A DNA stretch of 55,909 bases. Origin: a virus (Duplodnaviria > Caudoviricetes). Below, in pieces: positions 17,001 to 32,512 of the stretch. Position 1 is the first letter of the stretch; each line of letters opens with the position of its first letter. Below the pieces are notes generated by a model. It worked only from the letters and a program-made list of their open reading frames with translations. It was not told the DNA's origin and searched no databases. Position numbers and translations under genes: made by a program. The stretch covers positions 1-55,909 of IMG/VR virus record IMGVR_UViG_3300030106_007522, one strand, 5' to 3'.

Positions 17001-20000
17001 CCTTGAGCAAGACCTTTTTGACCTTCTTCTTTTCCTGACCGAATGTCAGGGAACCCATCTTGAAGAGGGTGAGGTCATTGTCGTATGCCATAAGGACAGG
17101 TGTATAAACATCGTTGATTGTTCTTCCGAGCGAGTTACGTTCCTGTGCAGAAAGCGGAATACTAAGCTCACAGGTCTTATCCTTGCCTGCATCGTCTATG
17201 CTGTCCTGTGTGTCGCCAAGAAAGTCCTTGATGCCTGCGATGTCGCCAGGGGTCAATGGATCGCCAATACGATCTCTGAAATCTTCTTGTGATTTACAAG
17301 GGTCATCAGTGGTGTCCCAAGACTTGTTCAATTCCTGGGCAAGATAAGAGAGAGTATTAACACCCTCGGAGACACCCATATCTTGACCGAGATTTGAATA
17401 ATACCCAGTAAGCAGTTCGTTTGTGAAGCTATCTGCATAATCTGGATAATTCTGTTGGATGTATGAATCAAGACTGTTGAGGGTCTGTTGGCTCATGTTG
17501 CCGCCGAGGGCTTCAACAAATTCCTCTGTTGACATCTGCTGTGTCGTGTTTCTGAGAACTTCGATTTGCCCGTCGGCAGATACTGCTATATTCGTGTCTG
17601 TACCGAGGAGGCCGCCATCAGGACCCATATTTGCAATTGTCTCAAACAATCCGTCACCTTGTCGCTGTGTCTTGTTGCTTGACACAGAGAGATTCCCTAT
17701 GCCGAGTGTCGCTTCCGAGACACCTTTTCCTGATAGTTTGACTGGTTCTTTAGCAAAGTCCAAAGCAGCCCTTGTGAGTATTGAGAAATCTTGATTCAAG
17801 AATTGCTCTTGTCCTTGTGGGGTCAAAAGACCAATCAAGGGGCTTTCTGCCATCATGTCCTCGAATGGTGTGCCTGAGCCGTTAAATGTTCCCTTTGCGA
17901 TTGCCTTGGCAAGTGGGCGCCAATTCTGACACTGCATTAAGTACTTGTCTGTAATCTGGTGTAGAAACTTTGCCGTTGCCTTGAGAAGATTGGTGACAAC
18001 CGACTTTTGCAATTGCAGCTTAACCTCTAGGTGAGGGTTCTGTGAGAATTTTGGCAGCTTAGGTATTGATCTCTTTTTCAGATTCGTGAGGTCAAAGTTG
18101 GAATCTGAATTTCCAGTTATAAGATCGATGATTGCCTCACACACTCGATTAAGCTGGAGGTTTCTATCCAAAATGTCAATGAACTTGTCTTCGTCTTTTG
18201 CCCTAGCAACACGAGCAACGATGATTTCTATGCTGTCAGAAGGATTCTCTCCATAAGAAGTTAGGTGTTGTTCGTTGCCGAGGTCTTTGATCTGTTTTGA
18301 TGTGTCGCCTACAGAATCACCCATTCTCCACCATGCTTCTGGTTTTGACAGACCCATGTTTTTATAATTCTTGTCGCTTGTTATCTTTCCTAGTTTCTTC
18401 CACTGCTCGTCATCAAACGACTTGTTCCAGATTGCCACCTCGTCAACAGAACCATGAAAGCCCTTCTGAACATTTGAAAGAGAGGTTGTTGCTTTGCCGC
18501 CAACTGTAAAGGATGCAGAGTCCTGCATTCCCAGGGGACCTTTAAAAAAGTTGCCCTTTGCCTTGTCCAGTTCCACACGTTGACCGTTGATGTAAAAATA
18601 TGCAATGCCGGCATCAGCAGTATATGCGAAGCCGATGTGGTTGTATCTACCGTTGAACACATTGAAGTTTCCTGCCAACTTAAGAGGTTCTGTGGTGTAT
18701 TCGATTTCTTCCCCTGTTTCAGAGGTGAAGCGGAATCTCAAATTCTCTGCATCGGTCTTGATTACCGAGAAGGTGTTTTGCAGATCAAGAATATAGCAGG
18801 TCTTTCCCTTGTTGTTTTCGAATTCTTTATTGTCGGTGCTTAGGTGGAAAGACACAGAGATGTCTTCTGATTCTGAATATACTTTTTGCTTTTGAAGCGA
18901 TGCATTGCCAAAAGCTGCTTTGTTGCTGTTGAATTTGGCTGCTTTAAAATTAAACTGAGTCTCGACCAGCTCATCCCATTGGTCGAATGCTGTTTTGAGA
19001 TCTTCAGTGTCGATGACCCTACCAAGGGCAAAGATTTGCTCCAGCATGTCCCTTGTTCGCCACACACCGAGATACTTGATTGCCTCCCTGCAGTTCGCGG
19101 GTAAAAGACAATCCATGATTTTTTGCAACAATGCTGCTGGACATATTTTTAGGAACAAAGGATCAAGATAATGCTTCTTAAATATAGCAACTACTTCTTC
19201 CTGGGTCAGGCTTTCGTCAAACCCCGCTTCGAAAGAAATGATGGAAGCACTGCGAGGTATGCGAATCTTTACTGGTTCGGCTGTGTCTTCTGGCCAGTTG
19301 CTCGGACGCAGATAAGCCAAGGCATCACCAGTGTCTTGAAGCCCCTGGACCATCATCTCGGCAACTTCACTATATTTGAATTTAGTGAGCTCCAAAACCT
19401 CTTCGCCGTCGAGGTCTTTAAGTCCTCCGCCTAAAACATAAACTTCATCTAAGTTCTCTTGTGGAGCCAAAGCAAACACATCATCTTCTTTGATCTCGTA
19501 ATCCACACCAGCAAGATCCGAAAGTGTTTCTTTCGCATCCTCTCTCAAGGATCTGTCAAATTCTTTTGCTGCTGCTTTGACCGCTGATACATTGTCTGAG
19601 ACGATGTTCTTGATCATCTCCATGTTTATTTCTTCTTTTGGTTTTTCTTGTTTTACTACAGTTGCGGGAGGATAATTATTTCCGTTTATAATGTCTATCA
19701 AAACATGGAAGTGAGATGAAAAAGCAACATAATCAACAGCGCGAGGGTCGATGCCCATGCTGGGTACACCACTGTCATAACCGCAGTCTGCAAACTTTTG
19801 TATCCTATCCGAGCCTGATGATATTGCCCTGAGAAGTTTTATGTCCTTTATATATCCGAGGACCTTTGTATTTCTCCATGCCGAGTTCTTTGAAAAGTGC
19901 TTGGCATCTACAGTAAGTGTAGACCTTGTGCCCTTTGGAGAAATCAAAAGACCTTTAAGTGTCTGGACGATATCACCGCCACGAATTATGTCATCGACAA

Positions 20001-20649
20001 ACTCAAGTGTTACGACATACGAATTGCCGATGGCAAGGTCCGATCCGGTTTCTGCTTTGGCACTTTGTATTGCGGTAGACAAGTCACTGTAGGAGTTTCT
20101 CAACATCTCCAAGTGTTCGTCAAAGTCCACGGCATTTAAAATTTTAAATTCTGCATTCTTTTTGTCCGCTTCTAGTCGGTTTTTGTGTAAACTGAAAATG
20201 GCGGCAACATGACCAGGGACCGCCAAATACTCCCTCATCGGTTGAAAGTCTGGATTGAGAATAATCTTTCCATCTTTTTCTTCTTCTGGTGGCAAGTCTA
20301 ACTCTGGAGCATTCATAAGAACAAAATCTTCGTCATCCATCAGATCAGGGTCAAGAGTGACCTCTTCCTCTTCTTCAACTTCTAAAGGTGGAGTTTCATC
20401 TCTTTCGAGAAAGTCGTCGACATACGAGGTGTCATCAAGGGTAGAGTTGATTTTACCCTCTTCAAAATTATTGGTGGCCTGGATTGCGGATTCGGATAGT
20501 AGTTCGTCCCCACCAACACTGTCTGCGAACAACGCAGCTGCCGTTTCCTTGGCAAGACTCTTTGGTGATTTGGATTCTTGGGAATACCTGTTTTGTGGAT
20601 CTTCCGTCTCTTCAGACTCATGTATATCAAATAAATTTCTATCTGCCAT
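14011..20649 (-). CDS. Very large acidic virion protein with a LamG domain and a His-rich (HxH) segment
   Basis: 2212 aa. LamG-like region (YNHIGFAY, YFYING, GSVDEVAIWN, PEAWWRMGD), three HxH motifs near the C-terminus and a hydrophobic C-terminal stretch. Lies between the gp25- and gp5-like genes. Confidence 0.6.
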   Translation of the reverse strand: MADRNLFDIHESEETEDPQNRYSQESKSPKSLAKETAAALFADSVGGDELLSESAIQATNNFEEGKINSTLDDTSYVDDFLERDETPPLEVEEEEEVTLDPDLMDDEDFVLMNAPELDLPPEEEKDGKIILNPDFQPMREYLAVPGHVAAIFSLHKNRLEADKKNAEFKILNAVDFDEHLEMLRNSYSDLSTAIQSAKAETGSDLAIGNSYVVTLEFVDDIIRGGDIVQTLKGLLISPKGTRSTLTVDAKHFSKNSAWRNTKVLGYIKDIKLLRAISSGSDRIQKFADCGYDSGVPSMGIDPRAVDYVAFSSHFHVLIDIINGNNYPPATVVKQEKPKEEINMEMIKNIVSDNVSAVKAAAKEFDRSLREDAKETLSDLAGVDYEIKEDDVFALAPQENLDEVYVLGGGLKDLDGEEVLELTKFKYSEVAEMMVQGLQDTGDALAYLRPSNWPEDTAEPVKIRIPRSASIISFEAGFDESLTQEEVVAIFKKHYLDPLFLKICPAALLQKIMDCLLPANCREAIKYLGVWRTRDMLEQIFALGRVIDTEDLKTAFDQWDELVETQFNFKAAKFNSNKAAFGNASLQKQKVYSESEDISVSFHLSTDNKEFENNKGKTCYILDLQNTFSVIKTDAENLRFRFTSETGEEIEYTTEPLKLAGNFNVFNGRYNHIGFAYTADAGIAYFYINGQRVELDKAKGNFFKGPLGMQDSASFTVGGKATTSLSNVQKGFHGSVDEVAIWNKSFDDEQWKKLGKITSDKNYKNMGLSKPEAWWRMGDSVGDTSKQIKDLGNEQHLTSYGENPSDSIEIIVARVARAKDEDKFIDILDRNLQLNRVCEAIIDLITGNSDSNFDLTNLKKRSIPKLPKFSQNPHLEVKLQLQKSVVTNLLKATAKFLHQITDKYLMQCQNWRPLAKAIAKGTFNGSGTPFEDMMAESPLIGLLTPQGQEQFLNQDFSILTRAALDFAKEPVKLSGKGVSEATLGIGNLSVSSNKTQRQGDGLFETIANMGPDGGLLGTDTNIAVSADGQIEVLRNTTQQMSTEEFVEALGGNMSQQTLNSLDSYIQQNYPDYADSFTNELLTGYYSNLGQDMGVSEGVNTLSYLAQELNKSWDTTDDPCKSQEDFRDRIGDPLTPGDIAGIKDFLGDTQDSIDDAGKDKTCELSIPLSAQERNSLGRTINDVYTPVLMAYDNDLTLFKMGSLTFGQEKKKVKKVLLKDSEFEQQVFEDGEMKSKKVKVEKTQINPEFESLLEQGYIPLKKDGSEDGTQFGGVMKKDWSIGALFSGEWGKEKGPYSLAPKVDGDDVKDPEGKPEDIVNSLGPYTDYDNPYATVYIPKADPGGNNVRAFSQDNLEFMNFGSADDLDSNSKPGYYLQRSVNSGRGIKNIVSKEKTGLLEPLKASSSPIVAGVTDRDLLTSIKHFLPFSRALNGKLITELETKRNDRFSPGTKIQTSSDFSMDPILQQKIIEQGYVESLDVGCDDPASENNGTQNDDTLQNLYTPQENVFEFIAQKNNSNLPSPSDLKVDVYDKIYREVLRAIFLKLSDSPLLKPIPGTEEGDGPTLYGMNFLNINQNPRLIDMASFTEQVAGDYTSLIACPQNLTEPPLITALKTSAPRILARSCLVDIMLKGIIPFSTLFFKRDDKIVQELILTKLENDMEVFSSDSAQVRVRIIEQYNVLANSGIIDRDPIETEGTDWFYSGWKDAMRYFLEDEFNFIASKMHHLVSGDCLPESDAALRNAMTMIIIDYIKKAEGKLQIESSAILTDGDTIPLNEVDFKEQAENLDKFVYEIVFEEKSRISLAKFQISAEEAFETLGIDPSRIGEIECETGHLYPDSGTTTETEGHSHKYEIDAEGRGRTTEIVGDDVPFHTHAINEYAVIPLFDFDGNRQHSHALPQLDTSVTTNRAVLEKLTTFMDQKLVESDDTRILFEFCFSVPDISNLALIYSLMSNENQIINSAFRSTKRAIFKMFDIIWRTGADTSADPCNTAPQNIGLDLNQMFPDFGDAILDPAILLAMVLAPLQTYRGWTKTTDPNVFITTTISDILNLPIIPIMKKKNIPDPFDDFKIKCVEVPTFPGKRPMDEMFLATYGVLSQPLVEGGIATVTTWAPTLFGLPPLSPLPFGYIYYFGVGPLIFILKDLPRLMKLMGEDSDSQQLLASIGMNVSPNIGADCKVIDVDSESQAGDDAEEEEDCPPVPDFQQTTIESRGDQDC

Positions 20650-23668: not shown

Positions 23669-23948
23669 ATTGCTCGAATTCCCTTTCCGTCAGTGAAAAA
23701 GAATTTTCGCATTCAACAAGGTATGCAACAAGGTCTTCTGAGTGGTCGAGCAAAGACTGTAGTGTCTGGTCGCCGTAGAATGTCTCTAACTCATATACTC
23801 CTCGCAAGTGTTTCTTGTATCTCTCAATAGCATCCAACATGTCCGTTGTGTTTTGAGAAGCATATGCATATTTCCTCAGTAGTTTGTAACCATACCACAT
23901 AAGGAAAAAATTAAATATTGCAGATAAAAATAATATTATTTCAACCAT
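23598..23948 (-). CDS. Hypothetical protein with N-terminal membrane anchor
   Basis: 116 aa with hydrophobic residues 2-20. Overlaps both neighbours. Confidence 0.6.
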   Translation of the reverse strand: MVEIILFLSAIFNFFLMWYGYKLLRKYAYASQNTTDMLDAIERYKKHLRGVYELETFYGDQTLQSLLDHSEDLVAYLVECENSFSLTEREFEQYVEETRTDSGYDYGQEEKETPQS

Positions 23949-24201
23949 TGTATTCTTTCTTCTTCAAGGACTTCAATTCCTTTTTTAATTCTGAACGAGA
24001 ATCTTCTATGAAATCCTTTACTCTTTGTCCCGCTGAGGAGTTATCATTTATCTCCTTGCCGAGAGTAAAAGAAAAAGAAGGAACTCGTACTAATGAATCT
24101 ATTGTATCACATTCTGAGCAGTCTTTAAGCTTTTCTTGCATAGAATGTACAACTTCAGTAACGAGTTCGCAACTTTTGCATCTATAAATGTACTTAGGCA
24201 T
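23941..24201 (-). CDS. FmdB-family zinc-ribbon protein
   Basis: MPKYIYRCKSC...CSEC is the typical FmdB CxxC/CxxC ribbon. Confidence 0.8.
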   Translation of the reverse strand: MPKYIYRCKSCELVTEVVHSMQEKLKDCSECDTIDSLVRVPSFSFTLGKEINDNSSAGQRVKDFIEDSRSELKKELKSLKKKEYNG

Positions 24202-24391
24202 TGGTTTCCAGTACGTTCTTATTTAATTTGTCTTCATCAATATGAAGAGTTGGTGGGTTTGTAACTGAAAGACCTTCGTCAGTAGTCACAAATTCCAAGT
24301 CTTTTAATAAAGGAACAATATCTGTTTGCTCCATTAAACATTTTTGCAGGACCATCATGATGGACCCAAGTGCTTGATCAGTTAGTTTCAT
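24194..24391 (-). CDS. Hypothetical protein
   Basis: The start at 24391 (MKLTDQALG) follows AGGAG. 65 aa. Confidence 0.6.
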   Translation of the reverse strand: MKLTDQALGSIMMVLQKCLMEQTDIVPLLKDLEFVTTDEGLSVTNPPTLHIDEDKLNKNVLETNA

Positions 24392-24797
24392 TTTGTTCTC
24401 CTTGTGCATTTAAATATTCTACAACCAAATCATGAATTTTTTCATCAACATTTTTCTTCCAAGAGTCATCATTCTCAGAAATAGAATTCCTAATAGATGT
24501 AGCTGATATGAATCCGATGTCAGCAGGTGGCTGGTGTTCAATTGTTCCATATCCAACACCTCGCCCCCAATTGACACTTTCGATATCTGGAATAACCATT
24601 ACTTCAACATCTTGACCTTCGTAAACCTTGTTGATCATTTCTACTGTCTGTTCGGTAGTGAAAGGGTTCTTGTCGTCTGGTGGGATGTCTCTCACACAAA
24701 TCAAAATCGGTGTTCCTTCGTCCAGCTTCTGACTAATCAGCCACTTATGACCGTTGTGCATCGGTTGCCACCTCCCAATAAACATTGCTCTCTTCAT
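24378..24797 (-). CDS. Small HIGH-superfamily nucleotidyltransferase (cytidylyl/adenylyltransferase-like)
   Basis: 139 aa. FIGRWQPMHNGH (HxGH), NPF, GRGVGY and ISATSIR motifs. Directly downstream of the APS kinase. Confidence 0.8.
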   Translation of the reverse strand: MKRAMFIGRWQPMHNGHKWLISQKLDEGTPILICVRDIPPDDKNPFTTEQTVEMINKVYEGQDVEVMVIPDIESVNWGRGVGYGTIEHQPPADIGFISATSIRNSISENDDSWKKNVDEKIHDLVVEYLNAQGEQNETN

Positions 24798-24805
24798 GTT
24801 GTCTC

Positions 24806-25534
24806 CTATGTATTTTTTAAAATAAACTTTTCTAATTTAGTTGCAGACTCTTCCAGCGACTCCTTGCTGGTATCTATGGTAAGATCACAAACCAACGGAA
24901 CATCAAAAGGATCTGAAATTCCTGTGAAGTTGTTAATCTTTTCTGCATGACCATCTGGCAAGAGGGCTCGCCTGTATAAATCTTTTGGATCTCTCTGCTT
25001 CAAGGTTTCAATATCACACTTAACAAAGACCGTCTTTGTATGTTCCGACATGTCTCGCAACTCCTTGCGGACATCCTCATATGGATTAATTGCCGACATT
25101 ATTGTAATAACATTGTTTCGAGCCAAGACCTTGGCAACAAACCCGAGACGTCGAATGTTGGTGTTTCTGTCTTCCTTGGAAAAACCAAGGTCATTGCACA
25201 AGCCTTGACGGTATTCGTCACCATCGATCACTTCTACTCTGATTCCTCTTTTTTCTAGTCTTCTTTTGACCTCCTTGGCGATGGTAGATTTTCCAGCACC
25301 GCTAAGGCCAGTCATTTGAATAAACATTCCTTTTCTTTTTCCCCATGAAAACATATTCCAGATCCTTTCGTGTATATTAAACATTATAAATGTATAAAGC
25401 TGATATATTAAGGACAAAGTTACTGCCTTTTTAATCGAGCCCGTGGTTATCAATCCGCCAACAGCGAGAGATAGAAATGTAAAAATCTTCCAAGTAAAGG
25501 CTTTAGTTAAAGTTCTTTTTGATGTATCAGACAA
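24806..25534 (-). CDS. cysC: Adenylyl-sulfate (APS) kinase with N-terminal DUF2061-like membrane domain
   Basis: TGLSGAGKSTIA, IDGDEYRQGL, DLGFSKEDRNTNIRR, RDPKDLY, FTGISDPF. The N-terminus has TLTKAFTWK...HERIW. Likely TTG start at 25534 after GGAG (the ORF track uses 25564). Confidence 0.92.
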   Translation of the reverse strand: MSDTSKRTLTKAFTWKIFTFLSLAVGGLITTGSIKKAVTLSLIYQLYTFIMFNIHERIWNMFSWGKRKGMFIQMTGLSGAGKSTIAKEVKRRLEKRGIRVEVIDGDEYRQGLCNDLGFSKEDRNTNIRRLGFVAKVLARNNVITIMSAINPYEDVRKELRDMSEHTKTVFVKCDIETLKQRDPKDLYRRALLPDGHAEKINNFTGISDPFDVPLVCDLTIDTSKESLEESATKLEKFILKNT

Positions 25535-25551
25535 TCTTTTTCTCCAAACTG

Positions 25552-26124
25552 TTATAAATCCCAAACAAAGTCACGATACATCGCTTCTATGTCTTCTTTA
25601 TAAACCTTTATAATTCTTTCTTTTTCTTTTGGATTAAGTTCTCTATGTGTGCTCGTGTTTTTTTTAGGTATGGAGAGCTTTGTGTTTAAAAAAGATTCCA
25701 TCTCTTCTTTTGCGGTGTCGAGCTCCTCAAGTCGCCAAATTTTATCTATATTTAATTTTCCGTCTCGATAAACTTGATAGTGAGGGTGGGTGAACGGAAG
25801 TGCATGTCTTTTTATATATTCTTTTTGATTCGAGAACTTGTAATAAGAGATGGACGAGTCTTCAACCAAATCCATTATCTCAGTCAAAGATATGTGCTTT
25901 CTTCTAAGTTTTAACAACATGCCCTGCAAGCTTAAGAGGCGCGAGACTGGATGTCTTACAATTGAAAATTTATTGAGATGGTTCCATTTTTCTTCTTTAG
26001 CAAGACTGATCAACTTGTTGGCGGGTGGAATCCAGATACTTTTAACATTCTTAAATGCCTGTTTCATGGATGTTCCGCCGCACTTATTGACATGTATAAA
26101 TAAATATTTCTTCTCTGTTTTCAT
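25552..26124 (-). CDS. Sulfotransferase (Sulfotransfer_2 family)
   Basis: FIHVNKCGGTS (5'-PSB), FSIVRHPVSRLLS (3'-PB) and C-terminal YKEDIEAMY. Confidence 0.85.
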   Translation of the reverse strand: MKTEKKYLFIHVNKCGGTSMKQAFKNVKSIWIPPANKLISLAKEEKWNHLNKFSIVRHPVSRLLSLQGMLLKLRRKHISLTEIMDLVEDSSISYYKFSNQKEYIKRHALPFTHPHYQVYRDGKLNIDKIWRLEELDTAKEEMESFLNTKLSIPKKNTSTHRELNPKEKERIIKVYKEDIEAMYRDFVWDL

Positions 26125-26126
26125 GG

Positions 26127-26936
26127 CTAGAACCCCTCTAGTAGATATTTTAACACAGCTTCATTTTTTACTTCAGCAGGAAAAGAGTTTATAAATTTCC
26201 TCAAGTCAAAATCAGGCTTATGCATTCTACTTAGAAGGTTTTCTATTTTTTTGAAATCAAAATCGTTTCCTGAGAAGTGTTCTTCATACTCAAGTTCCCT
26301 GTTTGTTGATTGAAAATAATCTCTGAATTTAAAGAGCCTTCCGAACAATTTTGTCCCGAACTCCACGAATGCAGTCGGAACACCGTAAGCTTCGCCAACG
26401 ATCAACCCATGCAAAGACGAAGTAACTAGTTTTTCACAGGACAGAATCCCCTCAATAACATTCACATGACCAGAGCGAATGTCTATGAGATTAACATTGT
26501 CATCAGAACATGATGCGAATGTAGAAACCCTATTGAAGTCAACATAATGTGGCAAAATGCCAAACTCATACTTCTTACCATTTCCAAAAGATTCCTTATC
26601 GAACAAGAGGGGCAAAACAGCACCTGGATCTCCGTATATCTCTGGACAGTCTCCTCCTGCTTGGATGATTCTTCGCCTGGTCTGAGGTCCGCGTACGGCA
26701 TGGAATTTGTGATTTCTTATTTGGGAAGATCCCTGGTTGTTATCAATCGCCCCACTTCCCCAAAATTGCATTGGAGATGGAAAGTTTTGAAAAGCAATGG
26801 AACCTATTGAGCAAAGAGAGCCCTCTTCAGTGCTTTTGATGACTTCTTGTCCAGTTAGCATTTCTAATATAATCGGAGAAATATCGTCACCGAAATTTGG
26901 TACGGATGCTTTGTACCACCAAGCCTTCAACACCAT
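26127..26936 (-). CDS. Polysaccharide pyruvyl transferase family protein
   Basis: NFGDDIS, IGSI, WGSG, AVRGPQTR, GDPG, ILPHYVD, TSSLHGLIVGEAYGVP, FKFRDY. Confidence 0.88.
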   Translation of the reverse strand: MVLKAWWYKASVPNFGDDISPIILEMLTGQEVIKSTEEGSLCSIGSIAFQNFPSPMQFWGSGAIDNNQGSSQIRNHKFHAVRGPQTRRRIIQAGGDCPEIYGDPGAVLPLLFDKESFGNGKKYEFGILPHYVDFNRVSTFASCSDDNVNLIDIRSGHVNVIEGILSCEKLVTSSLHGLIVGEAYGVPTAFVEFGTKLFGRLFKFRDYFQSTNRELEYEEHFSGNDFDFKKIENLLSRMHKPDFDLRKFINSFPAEVKNEAVLKYLLEGF

Positions 26937-26938
26937 GA

Positions 26939-27553
26939 TTAACCCCCCTCTTTTTGGGCGATCACCCTCAATAGATAAGGATCTTCTGAACCATAAACGG
27001 ACAGACCTCTTGATTCAATGCTGTAAGATATATTAAAACCTAAGTCTAGAAGCTTGTTTTTTAAACCTTCAGGGTCAATATATCTCCTGAAGTGTCCATC
27101 GTGGGTCTTTCTGAGATCTTTGTCTTTTGTGGTGCGAGCCTCGATAAGCAAGATACCGTCAGCAGACAAGCTTTTGTATGCCCAGGATAAAAGTTTGTTT
27201 TCCCGCTCTTCATCAATTGAATGAAGAAAGAATCTACTGTAAACGATCTCATATGTGTCTTGCAGACTATCAATGTCGTCGATATCCATACAAATAGAAT
27301 TAATTTCTGGGTGGTTTTTTTGAAGTTCTTTTATTGTTTCCTTCGCATTGTCTATGCTCGTAACATTAAGACCACTGTTAAGAAAGTGAATCGAGTCGCG
27401 ACCATTACCGCACCCGAGTTCAATAAGTCTTTTTCTGTTATCAACCCACTGATGTGAAAAATTCGCAAAAGAAGAGCAAGAAAGATTCGTCTCCTTGTTC
27501 TCTTTATAAAATTTGTTCCAATATTCTCTGTCGTCCATGTGAGCCTCTATCAC
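26939..27553 (-). CDS. Class I SAM-dependent methyltransferase
   Basis: YWNKFY, IELGCGNGRDS (motif I) and YSRFFLHSI. Confidence 0.88.
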   Translation of the reverse strand: MIEAHMDDREYWNKFYKENKETNLSCSSFANFSHQWVDNRKRLIELGCGNGRDSIHFLNSGLNVTSIDNAKETIKELQKNHPEINSICMDIDDIDSLQDTYEIVYSRFFLHSIDEERENKLLSWAYKSLSADGILLIEARTTKDKDLRKTHDGHFRRYIDPEGLKNKLLDLGFNISYSIESRGLSVYGSEDPYLLRVIAQKEGG

Positions 27554-28131
27554 CTATTATATACCACAACAAATCTGTTATTAATGATTCTTTGAAAGTA
27601 ATCCGAACCTTTTGCCAGGGGCTCTCTAAATCGATTCCCGTAGATGTATCTACATAAAGACTCTGGATTTTTTGGTGTTTTTATCTTTTCTCCAAAAAAC
27701 TCAACTTCATGACAATCAAAAATCATATCTTTTGGAAAGATGATGAAAGTCTCTTTGTTATCTGGTCTGCCACAGACGTTCCACTTGTCAACGACAAATT
27801 TCTCGTGAACATCATGATAAAAATAAATGTCCAAAAGACAGATCTCAGACTCTCTAATCTTATAGTATTGAGAAAAGATCCCTGGGAATACAGGTTGTCC
27901 GTTCACTTCTTGAGAACTTCTAAATCCACTTTCCTTTAAAAGGGTATCCACATTTTCAAAATCAGAATCCTTGACAAAAAGGTCGACATCATCGTCGCCA
28001 TCTATCAAATCTCCGTCCCTATGCAGACCAAGTGCGGTTCCATAGAAGACACAATAATCTACACCACGGAGGGCATGTGCTGCCTCCAAAAGTGTTTGAC
28101 GATGAAGTTCTTTGCTAACCTTTTTCTTCAT
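27550..28131 (-). CDS. LicD/fukutin-family phosphotransferase
   Basis: YGTALGLHRDGDLIDGDDDVD, LDIYFY and C-terminal PKNPESLCRYIYG..F.EP. Confidence 0.82.
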   Translation of the reverse strand: MKKKVSKELHRQTLLEAAHALRGVDYCVFYGTALGLHRDGDLIDGDDDVDLFVKDSDFENVDTLLKESGFRSSQEVNGQPVFPGIFSQYYKIRESEICLLDIYFYHDVHEKFVVDKWNVCGRPDNKETFIIFPKDMIFDCHEVEFFGEKIKTPKNPESLCRYIYGNRFREPLAKGSDYFQRIINNRFVVVYNR

Positions 28132-28140: not shown

Positions 28141-30012
28141 CTAGTAGCTAAACAATGACAAGTCAATATCAACATTTTGATAATTTCCGGCTTTGTGTAT
28201 CTTGTCGAAAAATACTTCTTCTTTCCTGAGCCTATCGGCATCATAAGAATCGAACCAACTCCCCGTAACTCGTCCGCTATAAATATCCTCAAAAAAGGTT
28301 GTCATCGTCCTTCGGAGCTCTTTAGCCTCTTCTGTTTTAGTGTTTATCGACACCAAACTGTTCTCTCGGACAGGGATAGTCAACACACCTTGACAATTCT
28401 TATCGGTCGGTCTTGCCCATTCGTGCTTGCCGTTAACGTGATCTTGTCGATATTGTGTTTTACTCTTCTTCATTACTCTCGGAACAGGAACATGCATCTT
28501 GCAAACATCTTCATCAAGAACTGGTATGCCGTACTGTACAGTATAAACAGACTTGTTTCTCAAGGATTTGAGAGAATCTTTTATCATCTGCAAATAACCT
28601 TTGCCAAAAACAAAATCAGCATCGTGCATAAAGACAATTTCTTCAGAACTTTCAGCCATAACATCATGCCTCAAATCTGCAAGTGTAAATTCCTTGGAGA
28701 AGTCCCTTTTTTCAGTTTTAAAATTAAGCTTAATTCCCGCATCTCTATATTGCTCCTGAAATGATTTTATTACACCAAGGGTGTTATCGGAGGAGCGATG
28801 ATTGATTATATACACCTCTGAAAGTATATCACTAAATTGCAAACAAGATTTTAAATATCTACCTATTGTCTCCTCTTCATTGTATGCAGGGCACACAAAG
28901 CTGAACTTCTCCTTGATCGAAAAGCTTGCTTTGTTGACGACAGATAGGTAATTCTTTGAGGCAATCTCTTTTGAGAAATTCTTCTCCCAGTCTTCTCTGC
29001 TGTTTTTATTCAAGACAGAAGAAATTGCATTCTTCAGTTCTTCTGGATTAAAATCTATTTTATCCAAAACAACACCACCGTGAAGGGGTCCCATGACACT
29101 TGGTACACCGCCGACGGGTGTTGAAACCCAAGGCAGACCTGCGCTCATTGCCTCAATGAGGACGAGAGGTAATCCCTCAGCAGTGGACGGTAAAACATAA
29201 ACATCGGATTTTAACAGAAGAGAGTCGATCAAAGAGTTGTTGTTTGTGCCCTTGATGAACTTAATGCTTTCCTGAAGATCGTTGTCTTCAACAAACTTTT
29301 TGCACTCCTTAAAGTACGGAACATCCCACGAATCTCTTGGGCTCCCAAGAAACACCAGGGAGTAGTCTTGCTTCATGCCTGCCTTGTGGAAGTTCTCTAT
29401 CAAATGAAGCTGGTTCTTTCTTTGTTCAAAAAGACCATGATTGAATATCACCTTTTTGTTTTTATCCAAACCCAATGTCGAATGAAGGTCGAACTCTTTC
29501 TTTTCTGTCTCTCGAACATCTCTGCTAAAGTTTGGAATAAAAACATATTCTATGTTGTTTTCTTCCAGAAACTTGTTCACAGGAGCATCTTTACAAAACG
29601 AAACAACAGTATCAAATGTTTTGATTCTTTCAACAATTTTCGAAACAATCTGCTTTGAATATCCCTGCTCTTCGTTCTTAACCCACTTGTAAACATTTTC
29701 ATCCAGATTGAGAACGAGTACCGAGTGATTGATTGCAGAAGTCTGGATCGTGTGTAAGCTCTGTGAACCTAAGTCCGCAAAGACAAAAACACTATCATAC
29801 CCACGGGACCAAAAGAGTGGTTTATTCAAGAAATCTAAATTTGGCATTTCAACAAAAGAATAATCAAAAGATTTTAAATCCCTGTTGGTATCGTGGGTTG
29901 TGATCACTTCGACATCGTTCCCTGCTTCTCGAAAGATGTCAACCACAGATTGGCAAAGCTTTTGAGTTCCCCCGATGGACGGGTAATAAAAATCACAAAC
30001 AACACCAATCAT
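28141..30012 (-). CDS. Bifunctional glycosyltransferase (GT-B/GT4-like fused to GT-A/GT2-like)
   Basis: N-terminal YYPSIGG...RKNQ...PSTAEGLPLVLIEAMSAGLP. C-terminal VCPAYNEEETI...SSDNT...HDAD. Confidence 0.88.
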   Translation of the reverse strand: MIGVVCDFYYPSIGGTQKLCQSVVDIFREAGNDVEVITTHDTNRDLKSFDYSFVEMPNLDFLNKPLFWSRGYDSVFVFADLGSQSLHTIQTSAINHSVLVLNLDENVYKWVKNEEQGYSKQIVSKIVERIKTFDTVVSFCKDAPVNKFLEENNIEYVFIPNFSRDVRETEKKEFDLHSTLGLDKNKKVIFNHGLFEQRKNQLHLIENFHKAGMKQDYSLVFLGSPRDSWDVPYFKECKKFVEDNDLQESIKFIKGTNNNSLIDSLLLKSDVYVLPSTAEGLPLVLIEAMSAGLPWVSTPVGGVPSVMGPLHGGVVLDKIDFNPEELKNAISSVLNKNSREDWEKNFSKEIASKNYLSVVNKASFSIKEKFSFVCPAYNEEETIGRYLKSCLQFSDILSEVYIINHRSSDNTLGVIKSFQEQYRDAGIKLNFKTEKRDFSKEFTLADLRHDVMAESSEEIVFMHDADFVFGKGYLQMIKDSLKSLRNKSVYTVQYGIPVLDEDVCKMHVPVPRVMKKSKTQYRQDHVNGKHEWARPTDKNCQGVLTIPVRENSLVSINTKTEEAKELRRTMTTFFEDIYSGRVTGSWFDSYDADRLRKEEVFFDKIHKAGNYQNVDIDLSLFSY

Positions 30013-31262
30013 ACCAATAGGTCCTCTAAGTCGATCTGATCAAGACCGAGAGGGTCATGATTGATTTCATGTACCAGCTTATCAAGAATCTTAGACTCTT
30101 CAAATTCCTTAACAACATATTCTTTCAACTTGGAGGCTTTGCTTAATGCCAAGTTGTGATCTTTGTAGACATCCGCAATCTTTGTTTTTGCAGACTGAAG
30201 ACTCGGGAAAGCCCATTTGGAATCTGGTGTTACAACATTCTCCCAAACTGATTCTTTTTGTACGTTGTTTAAATCATATGCAACTTTACCAAACATTCCC
30301 TTTTTCTTTTCTTTGCCCTTTTTGTCTTTCTGGGGGATGTACAAGAAATCTAAATGGCCGCCCCAGTCTGTTGTGACGATTGGCAAACCATTGTATGCTG
30401 CTTCAAAGAGCGGTAATCCAAAACCCTCACCGTGTGCCAATGAAAGCATGCACTTAACTTTGTCGTGGTTAAGAAGTGTTGTCATCTCCGCTTCAGTGAG
30501 GCGACCATGCAAGAGATAAATCTTACATTTTCGTTCACCGTAACGTCTGGAGATGACGGAAAGTGTGTGTTCCATCGTAAGCCTGTCGTAAGTGCTGCCA
30601 TTTTTGATAGCAGTCTTAATGATTAATCCAACGTTCTCGTTGTCTCGGAACTGCTCAACAAATGCACGAATGGTTTGTTCTAGATTTTTTCTCTGTCCCC
30701 ACAGTGCAACAGTAAGAAAGTTAAAGTCCGTATCGAAATCAAACTGTACATCTGCAGGTTCAACATTCTTAACCGGATATCCTACAATTTCAACAGGCAC
30801 ATTACAAACTAAATCAGTAACATGTTCTTTCTTCTCATTCACAAGTGGATACTTCGTATCAAGAAAGCCGCTTTTGGCATGTTGCGAAATGGTGATGATT
30901 TTATCCATCTCGTTAGATTTCTGCAGCCACAACGGTGCGACCTTGTGAGTCTCAATACCAGCTGTGATGCCGATGTTTACAGGTGCAATTTTTTGAAATT
31001 CGTTTGGAATAGTGACCTGAAGGGACAAATCAAATTGAATTTTATTCTGCACCGCATGATGAGTTTTAATTATCAAAGAGTCGATCCAAGCTCGTTCTTC
31101 TGAGTTTTCTGAAATCCAACCTGTCTTGCCCCATTCAATGTTGGCAAAATAAACATCAAACAAGTCTTCTCTACTACGAAGAGCACGAAGAACAAGTCTT
31201 GCATGTTCCCCGTACCCAGATGCACTCAGTGCAGGTCCTTTTACAATTACTTTCTTTTTCAT
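30009..31262 (-). CDS. Glycosyltransferase, GT4-like
   Basis: SASGYGEHAR, QRKN, HGEGFGLPLFEAAYNGLP. The start at 31262 follows GGAG and overlaps the upstream stop (ATGA). Confidence 0.88.
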   Translation of the reverse strand: MKKKVIVKGPALSASGYGEHARLVLRALRSREDLFDVYFANIEWGKTGWISENSEERAWIDSLIIKTHHAVQNKIQFDLSLQVTIPNEFQKIAPVNIGITAGIETHKVAPLWLQKSNEMDKIITISQHAKSGFLDTKYPLVNEKKEHVTDLVCNVPVEIVGYPVKNVEPADVQFDFDTDFNFLTVALWGQRKNLEQTIRAFVEQFRDNENVGLIIKTAIKNGSTYDRLTMEHTLSVISRRYGERKCKIYLLHGRLTEAEMTTLLNHDKVKCMLSLAHGEGFGLPLFEAAYNGLPIVTTDWGGHLDFLYIPQKDKKGKEKKKGMFGKVAYDLNNVQKESVWENVVTPDSKWAFPSLQSAKTKIADVYKDHNLALSKASKLKEYVVKEFEESKILDKLVHEINHDPLGLDQIDLEDLLV

Positions 31263-32512
31263 GATATCTCCGTTAGTGTCCATCTGTCATAACCCTCTCT
31301 TTTGTCCCACGAGCCTCTAGTCTCAATTGTCTTTTTGACGAGTTCGACCCAGCGCTGCTGGAAGAGTTCAAAACCATAATTCTTTTCTGCATGTTCCCGA
31401 CCAAGAGAGCCCAACTTCTTTCTTTCTTCGTTAGTCATGTTGTACATTTTGAGCATAGCATTGACGACATCATCACCGGACAATCGATCCTCATAAATCC
31501 ACGGGATGTTTTGAGAGCCGATGATTGCTTTTGATGCTGGTTCGAGTCCAATGCCGAAATAGGTTTCACCATCAAACACCTGCTCCTGCAGACCGCCTGT
31601 CATCGTTGCGATGATGGGGGTCGCACAGTTAAGCGACTCAAGGGCAGACAAGCCAAAACCTTCCGCATCTGAAATCATGACACTACAGTCTGCAAGATTA
31701 TAATATTTTGCAAGGTCTTCGTTGGAAATCTTATTTCTAGAAAACAAAACCTGACCATTGGTCAATTCGAGGTTCCTGATGATTGCATCCAAATCTTGAC
31801 CATGAGGGTCTTTGGTGTCTGTGTGCATGATAAGGGTCGCCTTGTCGTGGCCTACCTTATCTAAAAATTCTTTATACCAAAACAACAAAGAACCACTTTG
31901 CTTTCTACGAGCATTGCGGCTATTGAAAAATAAAACAAACCGATCCTTGTTGTTTTCAAAAATCTTGTCCCTGTTCTCTTTTATTTCTTCATCAGAGGCA
32001 GGCTTAAAAATCTTATCATCAACCGCATGGGGGATGTAATGACACTCAACCTCTGGTGCAACTGTCTTAACAATATCATCTGTGACCTTTGAAATAGTTG
32101 CTATAACATCGTTGGAAAGGTAATGTTTTTTGTTGTATGTTGGGTAAGGATAATTATCCCAAACATGATAGTATATTAAAGGACAGGTGGAACGAATCTC
32201 GTCGTCGATTTCCCACAACCAGCCCCAGAAACGAGGGTCTGTCATAATCCAAACCAAATCAACCTTCTCTGTGCGGACGATGGAGCGAATCAAATCCTGA
32301 GTTCCATATCCATCTACAGGGAAAATTGTCCAATCCTCTCCATACTTTTCTAAACGTTGCGGATTGTAATCATTGTGTTTGATGGCACCAGCAAGAGATA
32401 TTACCTTGTAATCTCCCGTAGCCAACAGTGCTTCAATCACATATCTTGTTTGTGTACCAACACCACTTGGAGACAAGGGGTGGTCGGACAAAGTTAAAAT
32501 TGTTTTTTTCAT
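31259..32512 (-). CDS. Glycosyltransferase, GT4-like
   Basis: SDHPLSPSGVG, RNARRK, AEGFGLSALESLNCATP. Confidence 0.88.
   Translation of the reverse strand: MKKTILTLSDHPLSPSGVGTQTRYVIEALLATGDYKVISLAGAIKHNDYNPQRLEKYGEDWTIFPVDGYGTQDLIRSIVRTEKVDLVWIMTDPRFWGWLWEIDDEIRSTCPLIYYHVWDNYPYPTYNKKHYLSNDVIATISKVTDDIVKTVAPEVECHYIPHAVDDKIFKPASDEEIKENRDKIFENNKDRFVLFFNSRNARRKQSGSLLFWYKEFLDKVGHDKATLIMHTDTKDPHGQDLDAIIRNLELTNGQVLFSRNKISNEDLAKYYNLADCSVMISDAEGFGLSALESLNCATPIIATMTGGLQEQVFDGETYFGIGLEPASKAIIGSQNIPWIYEDRLSGDDVVNAMLKMYNMTNEERKKLGSLGREHAEKNYGFELFQQRWVELVKKTIETRGSWDKREGYDRWTLTEIS

What the first reader, a model, noticed from the sequence alone, without database searches (positions are those of the whole stretch)
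24378..24797. 139-aa HIGH enzyme next to cysC may be a minimal ATP sulfurylase
Seen: GRWQPMHNGH, WGRGVGY and ISATSIR motifs, 8 nt downstream of the APS kinase, with no sat or cysD/N in the window. Known: Sat-type ATP sulfurylases (about 400 aa) belong to the same HIGH superfamily, with RNPxHxxH, GRDHAG and ISGT motifs. Inference: this tiny enzyme may make APS, completing sulfate -> APS -> PAPS -> sulfotransferase in three adjacent genes. Alternatives are a TagD-like cytidylyltransferase feeding LicD or a NadM-like NMN adenylyltransferase.
Basis: inference. Interest (0 to 1): 0.7.

Follow-up and report, generated by a model that had tools for sequence, protein, structure and literature searches.

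The report
Minimal ATP sulfurylase beside phage cysC
A 139-residue enzyme in a marine phage, descended from NAD-making enzymes, most likely performs the first step of sulfate activation, which would make it a third, very small kind of ATP sulfurylase that is also used by whole bacterial lineages.

Summary
It sits 8 nt after a bona fide APS kinase and next to a sulfotransferase, in a glycan-modification island of a T4-like marine phage.

The protein belongs to a large family (1150 representative clusters) that clearly descends from archaeal-type NMN adenylyltransferase (hhalign 99.85%). It has lost the central NMNAT segment, which is replaced by an invariant G-R-x-V-G-Y loop.

Four lines of comparative evidence point to ATP sulfurylase:
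- **Fusion.** 53 of 150 representatives are fused to an APS kinase, in both domain orders, and one homologue is fused to a sulfotransferase.
- **Neighbours.** The commonest neighbours are APS kinase and sulfotransferases. LicD was never found.
- **Missing partner.** 30 of 30 genomes carrying the family have APS kinase, 0 of 30 have Sat, and only 3 of 30 have a credible CysD.
- **Mutual exclusion.** In two clade samples the family, Sat and CysD never occur together. In one, 54 CysC-positive genomes split 42 CysD, 11 Sat and 1 this family. In the other, 78, 18 and 15 of 120 genomes carry the family, Sat and CysD, with no overlap.

No enzyme assay exists, and no structure could be predicted because the tool was off. 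My literature searches found no prior description. This would be a new variant of a known enzyme activity, of high interest.

The parts
24378..24797 (-). 139-aa HIGH-superfamily nucleotidyltransferase of the 'GRxVGY' family; proposed minimal ATP sulfurylase (ATP + sulfate -> APS + PPi)
   Evidence: ORF. PF01467 at 2.9e-6. hhalign 99.85% to an NMNAT-like profile, with the central segment deleted. Fusion, neighbourhood and phyletic evidence.
24747..24776 (-). GRWQPMHNGH (residues 8-17): the HxGH nucleotide-binding signature with the preceding Arg
   Evidence: Read. G8 and H17 are invariant; R9, P12 and H14 are at least 90% conserved. hhalign aligns it with RNPIHRAH of Sat and with GRFQPFHNGH of NMNAT.
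24549..24569 (-). WGRGVGY (residues 77-83): the family-defining loop that replaces the central NMNAT segment; proposed sulfate / phosphosulfate-binding loop (inferred)
   Evidence: Read. G78, R79, G82 and Y83 are at least 90% conserved. The motif is present in family loci and absent from all NMNAT-like loci. hhalign places R79 on the Arg of Sat's GRDHAG, but at low probability, 24-32%.
24489..24509 (-). ISATSIR (residues 97-103): the second nucleotidyltransferase signature (ISxTxIR)
   Evidence: Read. S98, A99, I102 and R103 are at least 90% conserved. It aligns with SGTEIR of NMNAT 1f9a and with LSGTKVR of Sat.
24798..24805 (-). 8-nt spacer between the cysC stop and the HIGH start, with GGAG just upstream inside the cysC 3' end; suggests co-transcription and coupled translation (inferred)
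   Evidence: Sequence; ORF ends.
24806..25564 (-). APS kinase (CysC, residues 76-252) with an N-terminal DUF2061 membrane domain (residues 20-70)
   Evidence: PF01583 at 5.1e-48 and PF09834 at 8e-6. TIGR00455 at 176 bits, above the 138.7 cut-off. P-loop, DGD, NIRR, ISPY-type and NFTG motifs are conserved in alignment A6.
25552..26124 (-). PAPS-dependent sulfotransferase (Sulfotransfer_2 type)
   Evidence: PF03567 at 5.7e-7; phrog_3347 'Galactose-3-O-sulfotransferase' at 7.7e-10.
26127..26936 (-). Polysaccharide pyruvyl-transferase-like protein
   Evidence: PF04230 at 1.3e-6.
26939..27553 (-). SAM-dependent methyltransferase
   Evidence: PF13489 at 3.3e-12 and related families.
27550..28131 (-). 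LicD-family phosphotransferase. Part of the same glycan island, but not a recurrent partner of the HIGH family.
   Evidence: PF04991 at 3.9e-7. The window's LicD found no homologue in 103 related loci.
28141..32512 (-). Three glycosyltransferase genes (a GT1+GT2 fusion at 28141-30012; GT1 at 30009-31283 and at 31259-32512), the likely builders of the glycan that is sulfated
   Evidence: PF00534, PF00535 and PF13692.

Best explanation
**What it is.** The 139-aa protein is a minimal, stand-alone ATP sulfurylase of a previously unrecognised type. It descends from archaeal/NadM-type NMN adenylyltransferase. It keeps the HxGH and ISxTxIR signatures. It has lost the roughly 25-30-residue central segment of NMNAT, and a short invariant G-R-x-V-G-Y loop stands in its place.

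**Proposed mechanism (inferred).** The HxGH and ISxTxIR parts hold ATP as in other members of the superfamily. With the large acceptor pocket gone, the Arg-bearing loop positions a sulfate ion. Sulfate attacks the alpha-phosphate and gives APS + PPi.

**How the pathway runs.** This reaction is thermodynamically unfavourable (recalled textbook knowledge). The adjacent APS kinase, which is fused to the family in a third of cases, therefore phosphorylates APS to PAPS at once. In the phage, the next gene, a sulfotransferase, uses PAPS to sulfate a glycan. That glycan is built and decorated by the downstream glycosyltransferases, pyruvyl-transferase-like protein, methyltransferase and LicD. The phage would thus carry sulfate -> APS -> PAPS -> sulfated product independently of its host.

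**Shown versus inferred.**
- Shown: gene order, family membership, ancestry, the deletion, the fusions, the neighbourhoods and the phyletic complementarity.
- Inferred: the catalytic activity, the role of R79, the glycan target, and any physical complex with CysC.
For: **1. Fusions.**
- Among 81 longer homologues most carry PF01583 APS kinase. One (P0181) carries a sulfotransferase instead.
- Among the 150 best representatives at 50% clustering, 53 carry PF01583.
- Both domain orders occur. On a family tree, strongly supported branches alone force at least 6 changes of the kinase-HIGH state and at least 2 of the HIGH-kinase state.

**2. Neighbourhoods.**
- CysC is adjacent in 19 of 23 viral loci, in either gene order. 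The one complete genome without adjacency has CysC elsewhere.
- CysC is adjacent or fused in 27 cellular loci from Acidobacteriota, Bacteroidota, Marinimicrobia, Omnitrophota, Planctomycetota, Saccharibacteria, Gammaproteobacteria, Halobacteriales and DPANN archaea.
- Pfam census of 138 ORFs around 17 cellular loci: APS_kinase 16, Sulfotransfer_3 9, Sulfotransfer_1 5, Inositol_P 2.
- Pfam census of 148 ORFs around 11 viral loci: APS_kinase 8, Sulfotransfer_2 3, plus sugar-nucleotide and glycosyltransferase genes.

**3. Missing-gene logic in 30 genomes carrying the family.**
- APS kinase in 30 of 30.
- Sat in 0 of 30.
- CysD over the cut-off in 1 of 30, with strong sub-cut-off hits in 2 more.
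- Six of the 30 are single-chromosome assemblies by their record titles.
- Five of these six chromosomes were searched further: 4 of 5 have sulfotransferases and 0 of 5 have aprA over the cut-off.

**4. Complementarity.**
- Chitinophagaceae sample, 151 genomes. 54 have CysC. Of those, 42 have CysD, 11 have Sat and 1 (G014) has this family. There is no overlap, and every CysC-positive genome has one of the three.
- Phylum of G002, 120 genomes. 78 have the family, 18 have Sat and 15 have CysD, again with no overlap. The 92 CysC-positive genomes split 74 family, 15 Sat and 3 none.
- Comparing 3 of 30 with 53 of 53 gives Fisher p=8e-19. This is descriptive only, because the genomes are not independent.

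**5. Anatomy.**
- The family profile against NMNAT 1f9a aligns positions 8-75 with residues 5-76, and 83-130 with 109-154. So 32 NMNAT residues are replaced by 7.
- hhalign to an NMNAT-like profile gives 99.85%, but the segment holding NMNAT-invariant W83, Y98 and F108 is absent.
- GRxVGY is present in the family loci and in none of the NMNAT-like loci.
- hhalign to Sat puts HNGH on HRAH, R79 on the Arg of GRDHAG, and ISAT on LSGT.
- The ATP-sulfurylase Pfam model hits 10 of 150 representatives at E<=1e-3. It scores 27.1 bits, above its 24.3 cut-off, on P0201.

**6. Related virus genomes.** Five large related virus records, two at least 90% complete, have no Sat over the cut-off and no CysD.
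Against: - **No biochemical data exist.** No structure could be predicted either (tool off). The role of R79 and the shape of the pocket are therefore untested.
- **Similarity to Sat is weak.** hhalign probability is 24-32%. Sat's QXRN and PFR motifs (listed in PMC6607087, passages read) are not present. The window protein itself does not hit PF01747.
- **Three of 30 carrier genomes also have CysD or a CysD-like gene** (G030, G018, G024).
- **In the Dadabacteria-type genomes the gene is not next to cysC.** It sits among housekeeping genes: aat, a GATase and an Mpo1-like gene.
- **Some partner kinases are short and divergent.** This holds in SAR11/SAR86 single-cell genomes, in Marinimicrobia, and in Xylella phage Sano and Stenotrophomonas phage DLP_6. 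There the kinase matches only the first ~90 positions of PF01583, at 28-38 bits in SAR11/SAR86 and the two phages. The Sano gene lies among replication genes, not glycan genes. Its substrate could differ.
- **Other fusion partners exist:** HAD, cupin, and an unidentified Cys-rich N-terminal region.
- **Most genomes are MAGs or SAGs of unstated completeness.** Absences can therefore be false.
- **The exclusivity is partly clade-structured.** The number of independent displacement events is small.
- **Some 'cellular' Bacteroidota loci may be phage-derived.** They hold phage tail-collar domains, 5 ORFs.
Confidence: 0.8

Rival explanations
1. It is a nucleotidyltransferase that belongs to the PAPS/sulfation module but does not make APS. 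It might adenylylate another small anion or acceptor, run mainly in reverse, or be a nucleotide-binding regulatory or scaffolding partner of APS kinase. In that case APS would come from an unidentified source.
For: - The fusion and neighbourhood data show functional linkage to CysC but not the reaction itself.
- Other fusion partners exist, HAD and cupin.
- Short divergent kinases partner the family in SAR11/SAR86 and in the Sano-type phages.
Against: - The catalytic HxGH and ISxTxIR residues are conserved at 90% or more, which argues against a non-catalytic role.
- Carrier genomes have APS kinase and sulfotransferases but no Sat, CysD or AprA. Something must make APS.
- The family is mutually exclusive with both known sulfurylases in two clades. 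That pattern is expected of an analogous enzyme, not of an accessory.
Confidence: 0.12
2. It is an NMN adenylyltransferase (NadM-like) that makes NAD, for example for phage NAD salvage.
For: - The closest solved and curated relatives are archaeal NMNATs: 1f9a at 9e-15 with the family profile, PRK01153 at 6.1e-15, and hhalign 99.85%.
- Phage NadM-Nudix proteins are weak tblastn hits.
Against: - Scores are far below the NMNAT family cut-offs: 55 against 127, and 44 against 181.
- Only the N-terminal half and the C-terminal helix align. The central 32 residues of 1f9a, including NMNAT-invariant W83, Y98 and F108, are missing.
- There is no Nudix domain.
- The family is a clade apart from the NMNAT-like sequences, with 99% support.
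- Its partners are CysC and sulfotransferases, not NAD genes.
Confidence: 0.04
3. It is a TagD/CCT-like cytidylyltransferase that makes a CDP-alcohol (CDP-glycerol, CDP-ribitol or CDP-choline) for the LicD encoded five genes away.
For: - It matches the generic Pfam family PF01467.
- It is of TagD-like size.
- A LicD gene lies in the same island, at 27550-28131, and no other recognised cytidylyltransferase was seen in the window.
Against: - With the family profile, the TagD structure 2b7l scores only E 0.049, against 9e-15 for NMNAT.
- The window's LicD has no detectable homologue in any of 103 related loci.
- LicD is not among the 25 commonest neighbour families in either census.
- This rival explains none of the CysC fusions or the Sat/CysD complementarity.
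Confidence: 0.03

Closest known systems
Sat-type ATP sulfurylase (PF01747 catalytic domain with a PUA-like N-domain, about 390 aa; e.g. the yeast enzyme 1G8H)
   Same: - It carries out the proposed reaction and belongs to the same HIGH/HxxH nucleotidyltransferase superfamily.
- HNGH is the very motif of human PAPSS1 (PMC11697783, passages read).
- hhalign puts R79 and GVG on the GRDHAGVG loop, and ISAT on LSGT.
- It is often paired or fused with APS kinase.
   Different: - It is a third of the size and has no PUA-like domain.
- It has no QXRN or PFR motif (motif list from PMC6607087).
- The window protein does not match PF01747.
- Profile similarity is only 24-32% probability. Its real ancestry is NMNAT, so any active-site likeness is convergent.
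CysDN heterodimeric ATP sulfurylase (PP-loop CysD plus GTPase CysN)
   Same: It performs the same metabolic step. It is mutually exclusive with this family in genomes.
   Different: The fold is unrelated and the enzyme is driven by GTP hydrolysis. The HIGH protein has no GTPase partner, so it must rely on APS kinase and pyrophosphatase to pull the reaction (inferred).
Archaeal / NadM-type NMN adenylyltransferase (MJ0541, PDB 1f9a; M. thermautotrophicus 1ej2)
   Same: It is the closest relative by sequence: 9e-15 and hhalign 99.85%. It shares GRxQPxHxGH, NPFT, IPDI, SxTxIR and a conserved Trp in the C-terminal helix.
   Different: The family lacks the central 32 residues of 1f9a (77-108) and the NMNAT-invariant W83, Y98 and F108. 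It has GRxVGY instead. Its genomic partners are CysC and sulfotransferases.
Bifunctional PAPS synthase (animal PAPSS: APS kinase fused to Sat-type sulfurylase) and, by analogy, CoA synthase (PPAT fused to dephospho-CoA kinase; recalled, not checked here)
   Same: The architecture is a HIGH-type adenylyltransferase joined to a P-loop kinase that phosphorylates the 3'-OH of the adenylylated product. The fused family members (P0135, P0140, P0174, P0199, P0201) would be PAPS synthases of 300-350 aa.
   Different: The sulfurylase half belongs to a different family. Both domain orders occur. In the window the two halves are separate genes.

Membership tests
Sat-type ATP sulfurylase (PF01747) | Significant match to the ATP-sulfurylase catalytic domain model over most of its length | tested here: not met
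   The window protein has no PF01747 hit at E<=0.01. 10 of 150 relatives hit weakly. The one examined over the cut-off, P0201, scores 27.1 bits against 24.3 but covers only profile positions 29-85 of 212. hhalign probability is 24-32%.
Sat-type ATP sulfurylase (PF01747) | HXXH motif | tested here: met
   H14-N-G-H17. It aligns with HRAH of Sat.
Sat-type ATP sulfurylase (PF01747) | QXRN motif directly before HXXH (motif list from PMC6607087) | tested here: not met
   The sequence is G-R-W-Q-P-M-H. The Arg is one position further from the His than in Q-T-R-N-P-M-H, and there is no Gln or Asn in register.
Sat-type ATP sulfurylase (PF01747) | VGRDHAG 'GRD loop' | tested here: inconclusive
   The family has an invariant G-R-x-V-G-Y. 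hhalign aligns its Arg and GVG with the GRDHAGVG of Sat, but at low probability, and D-H-A are missing. No structure was available.
Sat-type ATP sulfurylase (PF01747) | PFR motif and the N-terminal PUA-like domain (PF14306) | tested here: not met
   The 139-aa protein has no such region. The Sat homologues carry PF14306 + PF01747.
Archaeal/NadM NMN adenylyltransferase | Score above the curated family cut-offs (PRK01153, TIGR01527) | tested here: not met
   55.2 bits against 127, and 44.4 bits against 181.2. Only residues 2-74 match.
Archaeal/NadM NMN adenylyltransferase | Central helix-strand segment (1f9a residues 77-108) with invariant Trp, Tyr and Phe. That this segment binds NMN is recalled, not checked. 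| tested here: not met
   The segment is replaced by 7 profile positions. W83, Y98 and F108, invariant in 10 NMNAT-like sequences, have no counterpart.
Archaeal/NadM NMN adenylyltransferase | Common descent (same fold family) | tested here: met
   hhalign gives 99.85%, E 8e-31. The family is nevertheless a separate clade, with 99% support.
TagD/CCT cytidylyltransferases | Sequence relationship to glycerol-3-phosphate cytidylyltransferase, and association with CDP-alcohol users such as LicD | tested here: not met
   2b7l scores E 0.049 with the family profile. The window's LicD gave 0 hits in 103 related loci.
Functional class 'ATP sulfurylase' (any fold) | Genomic coupling to APS kinase and PAPS users | tested here: met
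   Fusions in 53 of 150 representatives; adjacency; sulfotransferases are the top neighbours after APS kinase.
Functional class 'ATP sulfurylase' (any fold) | Phyletic complementarity with the known sulfurylases in CysC-positive genomes | tested here: met
   Sat in 0 of 30 and CysD(-like) in 3 of 30 carriers. The three sets are disjoint in two clade samples.
Functional class 'ATP sulfurylase' (any fold) | Catalysis of ATP + sulfate <-> APS + PPi | not testable with these tools
   Needs an enzyme assay or genetic complementation.
APS kinase (the neighbour, 24806-25564) | Match above the equivalog cut-off and the catalytic motifs | tested here: met
   TIGR00455 at 176 bits, above 138.7. PF01583 at 5.1e-48. 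P-loop, DGD and NIRR motifs are conserved.

The most novel reading that the evidence does not exclude
This is a third, independently evolved class of ATP sulfurylase and the smallest known, at about 130 aa. It arose from NMN adenylyltransferase by deletion of the acceptor-binding segment.

It would be the sole sulfate-activating enzyme of whole lineages. Those include 78 of 120 genomes sampled in the Dadabacteria-type phylum. They also include members of SAR11, SAR86, Marinimicrobia, Omnitrophota, CPR bacteria and DPANN archaea.

Abundant marine T4-like phages carry it together with cysC and a sulfotransferase, so they can make PAPS and sulfated glycans without any host sulfate-activation pathway. 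'Orphan' viral and microbial cysC genes that are now read as fragments of assimilatory sulfate reduction would then be complete PAPS-synthesis modules.
Probability: 0.72. Interest if true: 0.85.

Novelty: new variant of a known kind. Interest (0 to 1): 0.78.

Why it matters
**A third way to activate sulfate.** Sulfate activation is the entry point of all sulfate assimilation and sulfation. Only two enzyme types, Sat and CysDN, are used to annotate it. A third, tiny type would have several consequences:
- It would close a 'missing gene' gap in genomes that have APS kinase and sulfotransferases but no sulfurylase.
- It would change how viral cysC 'auxiliary metabolic genes' are read. The two viral-cysC papers I read in passages (COBRA, PMC10914622; bioRxiv 10.1101/2021.01.05.425418) treat them as part of assimilatory sulfate reduction, and their main texts do not contain the word 'sulfurylase'.
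- It would suggest that some SAR11, SAR86 and Dadabacteria cells, and their phages, make sulfated surface glycans.
- It would offer a very small part for engineered PAPS regeneration.

**An example of enzyme evolution.** It would also show a new substrate specificity arising through loss of a substrate-binding element.

**Limits of the novelty claim.** It rests on eight library searches. Subscription-only papers and all supplementary files were not visible to me.

Tried and rejected
**Structure and complex prediction.** I asked structure prediction four times.

**Atlas search.** The ESM Atlas holds the sequence but no model. It returned only 'cytidyltransferase-like', mostly viral, clusters.

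**Transcription.** One marine metatranscriptome library holds two short contigs identical to the window. One lies inside the HIGH gene (24400-24554) and one inside cysC (25000-25223). The tool warns that DNA can be present in such libraries, and the rest of the stretch is uncovered. I count this as a weak hint at most, not as evidence of expression or co-transcription.

**Host identity.** The PhoH protein found no cultured phage above 38% identity. The host is unknown.

**Defence role.** There was no PADLOC match for the HIGH protein. CysC gave only P-loop cross-hits.

**Sat-profile comparison.** The last homologue search returned only Sat sequences at least 74% identical to the query. The Sat profile (A7) is therefore shallow, and the 32% hhalign probability may understate or misstate the relationship.

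**NMNAT literature.** I looked for open text on the NMN-binding residues of archaeal NMNAT and found none. That the deleted segment binds NMN is my recollection, not a checked fact.

**Considered and rejected.**
- A non-canonical PPAT-DPCK pair. The kinase is a strong APS-kinase match. The carrier G014 has a separate weak, N-terminal-only match, which I took to be PPAT without checking.
- APS supplied by reverse APS reductase. AprA was over the cut-off in 0 of 5 chromosomes.
Full report
**Observation.** The window is a 55.9-kb viral record, about 31% of a genome by CheckV. Its genes mark it as a T4-like marine phage:
- baseplate wedge, PhoH and a gp55-like late sigma factor;
- related contigs that carry Gp23 capsid genes.

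ORF 24378-24797 on the minus strand encodes 139 aa. Read from the sequence, the three motifs are:

| Motif | Residues |
|---|---|
| GRWQPMHNGH | 8-17 |
| WGRGVGY | 77-83 |
| ISATSIR | 97-103 |

The gene starts 8 nt after the stop of ORF 24806-25564 and has a GGAG just upstream. That upstream ORF is a true APS kinase. It matches PF01583 at 5.1e-48 and TIGR00455 at 176 bits against a cut-off of 138.7. It also carries an N-terminal DUF2061 membrane domain.

Upstream of it, all on the same strand, lie:
- a Sulfotransfer_2 protein;
- a pyruvyl-transferase-like protein;
- a methyltransferase;
- LicD;
- three glycosyltransferase genes.

Sat, CysD and CysN are not in the window.

**What the protein is related to.** Curated libraries give only generic or sub-threshold matches:
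- PF01467 at 2.9e-6;
- archaeal NMNAT models at 55 and 44 bits, against cut-offs of 127 and 181, covering residues 2-74 only.

The family is large. There are 2922 near-length homologues, mostly from marine metagenomes. There are 1150 clusters at 50% identity with E<=1e-3, of which 392 are at E<=1e-10.

With a profile of 32 diverse members (A2), the best solved relative is the M. jannaschii NMNAT 1f9a at 9e-15. PPATs come next, and TagD scores only E 0.049.

The residue-level alignment shows a deletion:
- Profile positions 8-75 match 1f9a residues 5-76.
- Profile positions 83-130 match 1f9a residues 109-154.
- So 32 NMNAT residues are replaced by 7 positions, which hold the G-R-x-V-G-Y loop.

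Profile-profile comparison with ten NMNAT-like ORFs gives 99.85% probability. It shows the same deletion, which removes the NMNAT-invariant W83, Y98 and F108.

The loop motif is present in all the family loci listed apart from one regex miss (L059). It is present in none of the NMNAT-like archaeal loci. On a tree, 157 family rows separate from 8 NMNAT-like rows with 99% support.

So the protein is a derived offshoot of NMNAT that has lost the central segment. I recall, but could not check, that this segment forms the NMN site.

**Link to APS kinase.**
- Of 81 homologues longer than 244 aa, most carry PF01583. One carries a sulfotransferase domain. Others carry HAD, cupin, or an unidentified Cys-rich N-terminal region.
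- Among the 150 best representatives, which is an unbiased sample at 50% clustering, 53 carry PF01583.
- Kinase-HIGH and HIGH-kinase orders both occur. Strongly supported branches alone force at least 6 and at least 2 changes of these states respectively.
- In 23 related viral loci, CysC is adjacent in 19, upstream or downstream. One of the other four is cut at the contig end. One is a complete 190-kb genome with CysC 52 kb away. Two are 11-15% fragments.
- In genome contigs, CysC is adjacent or fused in 27 loci from at least nine phyla of bacteria and archaea.
- A Pfam census of 138 ORFs within 3.5 kb in 17 cellular loci ranks APS_kinase (16), Sulfotransfer_3 (9) and Sulfotransfer_1 (5) highest. 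Inositol_P, a CysQ-type family, appears twice.
- The viral census, 148 ORFs in 11 loci, ranks APS_kinase first (8). DUF2061, GDP-mannose dehydratase and epimerases follow at 5 each, with Sulfotransfer_2 and glycosyltransferases at 3.
- LicD appears in neither top-25 list. The window's LicD found nothing in 103 loci.

**The missing-gene argument.** I took 30 genomes chosen only because they carry the family.

| Search | Result |
|---|---|
| APS kinase | 30 of 30 |
| Sat | 0 of 30 |
| CysD over its cut-off | 1 of 30 (G030) |
| CysD, strong sub-cut-off hits | 2 more (G018, G024) |
| CysD, weak hits of 40 bits or less | 3 more |

The search method works: it finds Sat and CysD in the expected control genomes and in the samples described below.

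Six of the 30 are single-chromosome assemblies by title. Five of these six chromosomes were searched further: 4 of 5 encode PAPS-type sulfotransferases and 0 of 5 have AprA over the cut-off. These genomes have a PAPS maker and PAPS users but no known way to make APS.

**Complementarity controls.**

*Family of carrier G014 (Chitinophagaceae by the record title), 151 genomes.*
- Only G014 has the family (1.2e-50). The other hits, at about 1e-6 and N-terminal only, I take to be PPAT.
- 54 genomes have CysC. Of those, 42 have CysD and 11 have Sat.
- The 11 with Sat are exactly the CysD-less genomes other than G014.
- So 53 of 53 non-carriers with CysC have a known sulfurylase, and the single carrier has neither.

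*Phylum of carrier G002, 120 genomes.*
- 78 have the family at E<=1e-20. 18 have Sat. 15 have CysD.
- No genome is in two sets.
- The 92 CysC-positive genomes split 74 family, 15 Sat and 3 none.

A Fisher test of 3 of 30 against 53 of 53 gives 8e-19. I give it as a description only, because the genomes are related and the exclusivity follows clades.

This three-way mutual exclusion is the pattern expected if the family is an analogue of Sat and CysDN.

**Resemblance to Sat.** Against a Sat sequence and a shallow Sat profile, hhalign gives 24% and 32% probability (E 8.6e-4 and 4.9e-4). The register is consistent in both:
- WQPMHNGH on RNPIHRAH;
- G-R...G-V-G on IIGRDHAGVG;
- ISATSIR on LSGTKVR.

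The ATP-sulfurylase Pfam model hits 10 of 150 representatives at E<=1e-3. On P0201 it exceeds its cut-off, 27.1 bits against 24.3, over the HxGH region only. In one related phage its only weak hit lies inside the HIGH gene itself.

Sat's QXRN and PFR motifs (list from PMC6607087, passages read) and its PUA-like domain are absent. HNGH is also the motif of human PAPSS1 (PMC11697783, passages read). I therefore file the protein as working like an ATP sulfurylase but not as a member of the Sat family.

**Mechanism proposed.**
- Shown: the conserved HxGH and ISxTxIR signatures, the loss of the acceptor segment, and a new invariant Arg-bearing loop.
- Inferred: ATP binds as in NMNAT. The trimmed pocket admits only a small anion. 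R79, perhaps with R9 and Y83, holds sulfate for in-line attack on the alpha-phosphate. APS is removed by the adjacent or fused APS kinase, with host pyrophosphatase pulling the unfavourable equilibrium. The sulfotransferase then sulfates a glycan assembled by the island's transferases.

The parallel with PPAT plus dephospho-CoA kinase in CoA synthesis is recalled, not tested.

**Evidence that does not fit neatly.**
- In the Dadabacteria-type genomes the gene is not next to cysC. It lies among aat, GATase and Mpo1-like genes.
- In five SAR11 and SAR86 single-cell genomes, the partner directly upstream is a short P-loop ORF. It matches only the first ~90 positions of PF01583, at 29-31 bits. Marinimicrobia also have a short kinase.
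- Cultured Xylella phage Sano and Stenotrophomonas phage DLP_6 have a kinase-HIGH fusion with an equally weak kinase half. In Sano it sits among replication genes.
- Three carriers also have CysD(-like) genes.
- Some Bacteroidota 'cellular' loci contain phage tail-collar domains and may be phage DNA.
- Most genomes are MAGs or SAGs of unstated completeness.

**Population and expression.** Near-identical DNA occurs in marine metagenomes of several studies. Against one related population, 3 of 4 differences in the gene and 6 of 6 in cysC are synonymous. One RNA library holds two exact short contigs, one in each gene. That does not show transcription.

**Novelty.** Eight full-text searches found no paper describing this family or any third type of ATP sulfurylase. 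Two papers on viral cysC were read in passages. They treat cysC as part of assimilatory sulfate reduction, and their main texts do not contain the word 'sulfurylase'. Supplements were closed and subscription journals are not in the library, so prior description cannot be excluded. JGI names some stand-alone members 'adenylylsulfate kinase', most likely by transfer from fused forms.

**Verdict.**
- Best explanation: a minimal, NMNAT-derived ATP sulfurylase, at confidence 0.8.
- Rivals: another role within the PAPS module (0.12), NMNAT (0.04), TagD-like cytidylyltransferase (0.03).
- Novelty class: a new variant of a known kind, meaning a new enzyme family for a known reaction.
- Interest: 0.78.
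- The decisive test is a simple enzyme assay, or cysDN complementation in E. coli K-12.

Noticed in passing
window 25340-25564 (-), residues 1-75 of the APS kinase: The APS kinase carries an N-terminal DUF2061 predicted membrane domain (PF09834 at 8e-6). The same domain recurs in 5 of 148 neighbour ORFs of related viral loci. It is also fused to CysC in Chitinophagaceae loci L048 and L050. This may tether PAPS synthesis to the membrane. Its role is unknown.
   Followed up: partly
window 23941-24409 (-): ORFs 24194-24409 (71 aa) and 23941-24201 (86 aa, Zn-ribbon PF09723): Two small ORFs directly downstream of the HIGH gene. The first overlaps its end by 32 nt. They are syntenic in most related viral loci and have no known function.
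   Followed up: partly
L001:5048-5995, and likewise L005, L007, L008, L020, L022: In these phages the CysC gene upstream of the HIGH gene is about 315 aa. APS_kinase covers only residues 25-173, and the C-terminal ~140 aa has no Pfam match.
   Followed up: no
L064, L066-L069, L071, L072, L074, L075, L082 (SAR86 and Pelagibacteraceae single-cell genomes): SAR11 and SAR86 genomes carry GRGVGY-family members of about 130 aa. A short, weak APS-kinase-like P-loop ORF lies directly upstream. Five of five genomes tested have neither Sat nor CysD. This is notable because I recall SAR11 being described as unable to assimilate sulfate.
   Followed up: partly
L114:2596-3333 (Xylella phage Sano gp35 'kinase') and L115:2593-3324 (Stenotrophomonas phage DLP_6): Cultured phages encode a kinase-HIGH fusion of about 245 aa (phrog_10255) with a truncated, weakly APS-kinase-like N-half. 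In Sano it sits among MazG and topoisomerase genes rather than glycan genes. Its function may differ from that of the marine family.
   Followed up: partly
window 41645-44002 (-): The phage encodes a full-length Lon protease, with LON substrate-binding, AAA, lid and Lon_C domains (Lon_C at 8e-81).
   Followed up: no
window 44690-47362 (-): An 890-aa ORF with no Pfam match. It has a weak phrog_395 'cytidyltransferase' match at residues 417-461. It could be a second HIGH-like element, or chance.
   Followed up: no
window 14011-20649 (-): A 2212-aa ORF next to baseplate genes, with acidic low-complexity ends. Presumably a virion or tail protein. Not examined.
   Followed up: no
P0155, P0167, P0192: Some family members carry an N-terminal extension of about 180 aa, rich in Cys-x-x-Cys pairs. 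I did not identify this region.
   Followed up: no
L039-L043 and neighbours: Five ORFs with phage tail-collar domains (PF07484) lie near the family gene in loci filed under Bacteroidota MAGs or SAGs. Some 'cellular' occurrences may therefore be phage or prophage DNA.
   Followed up: no
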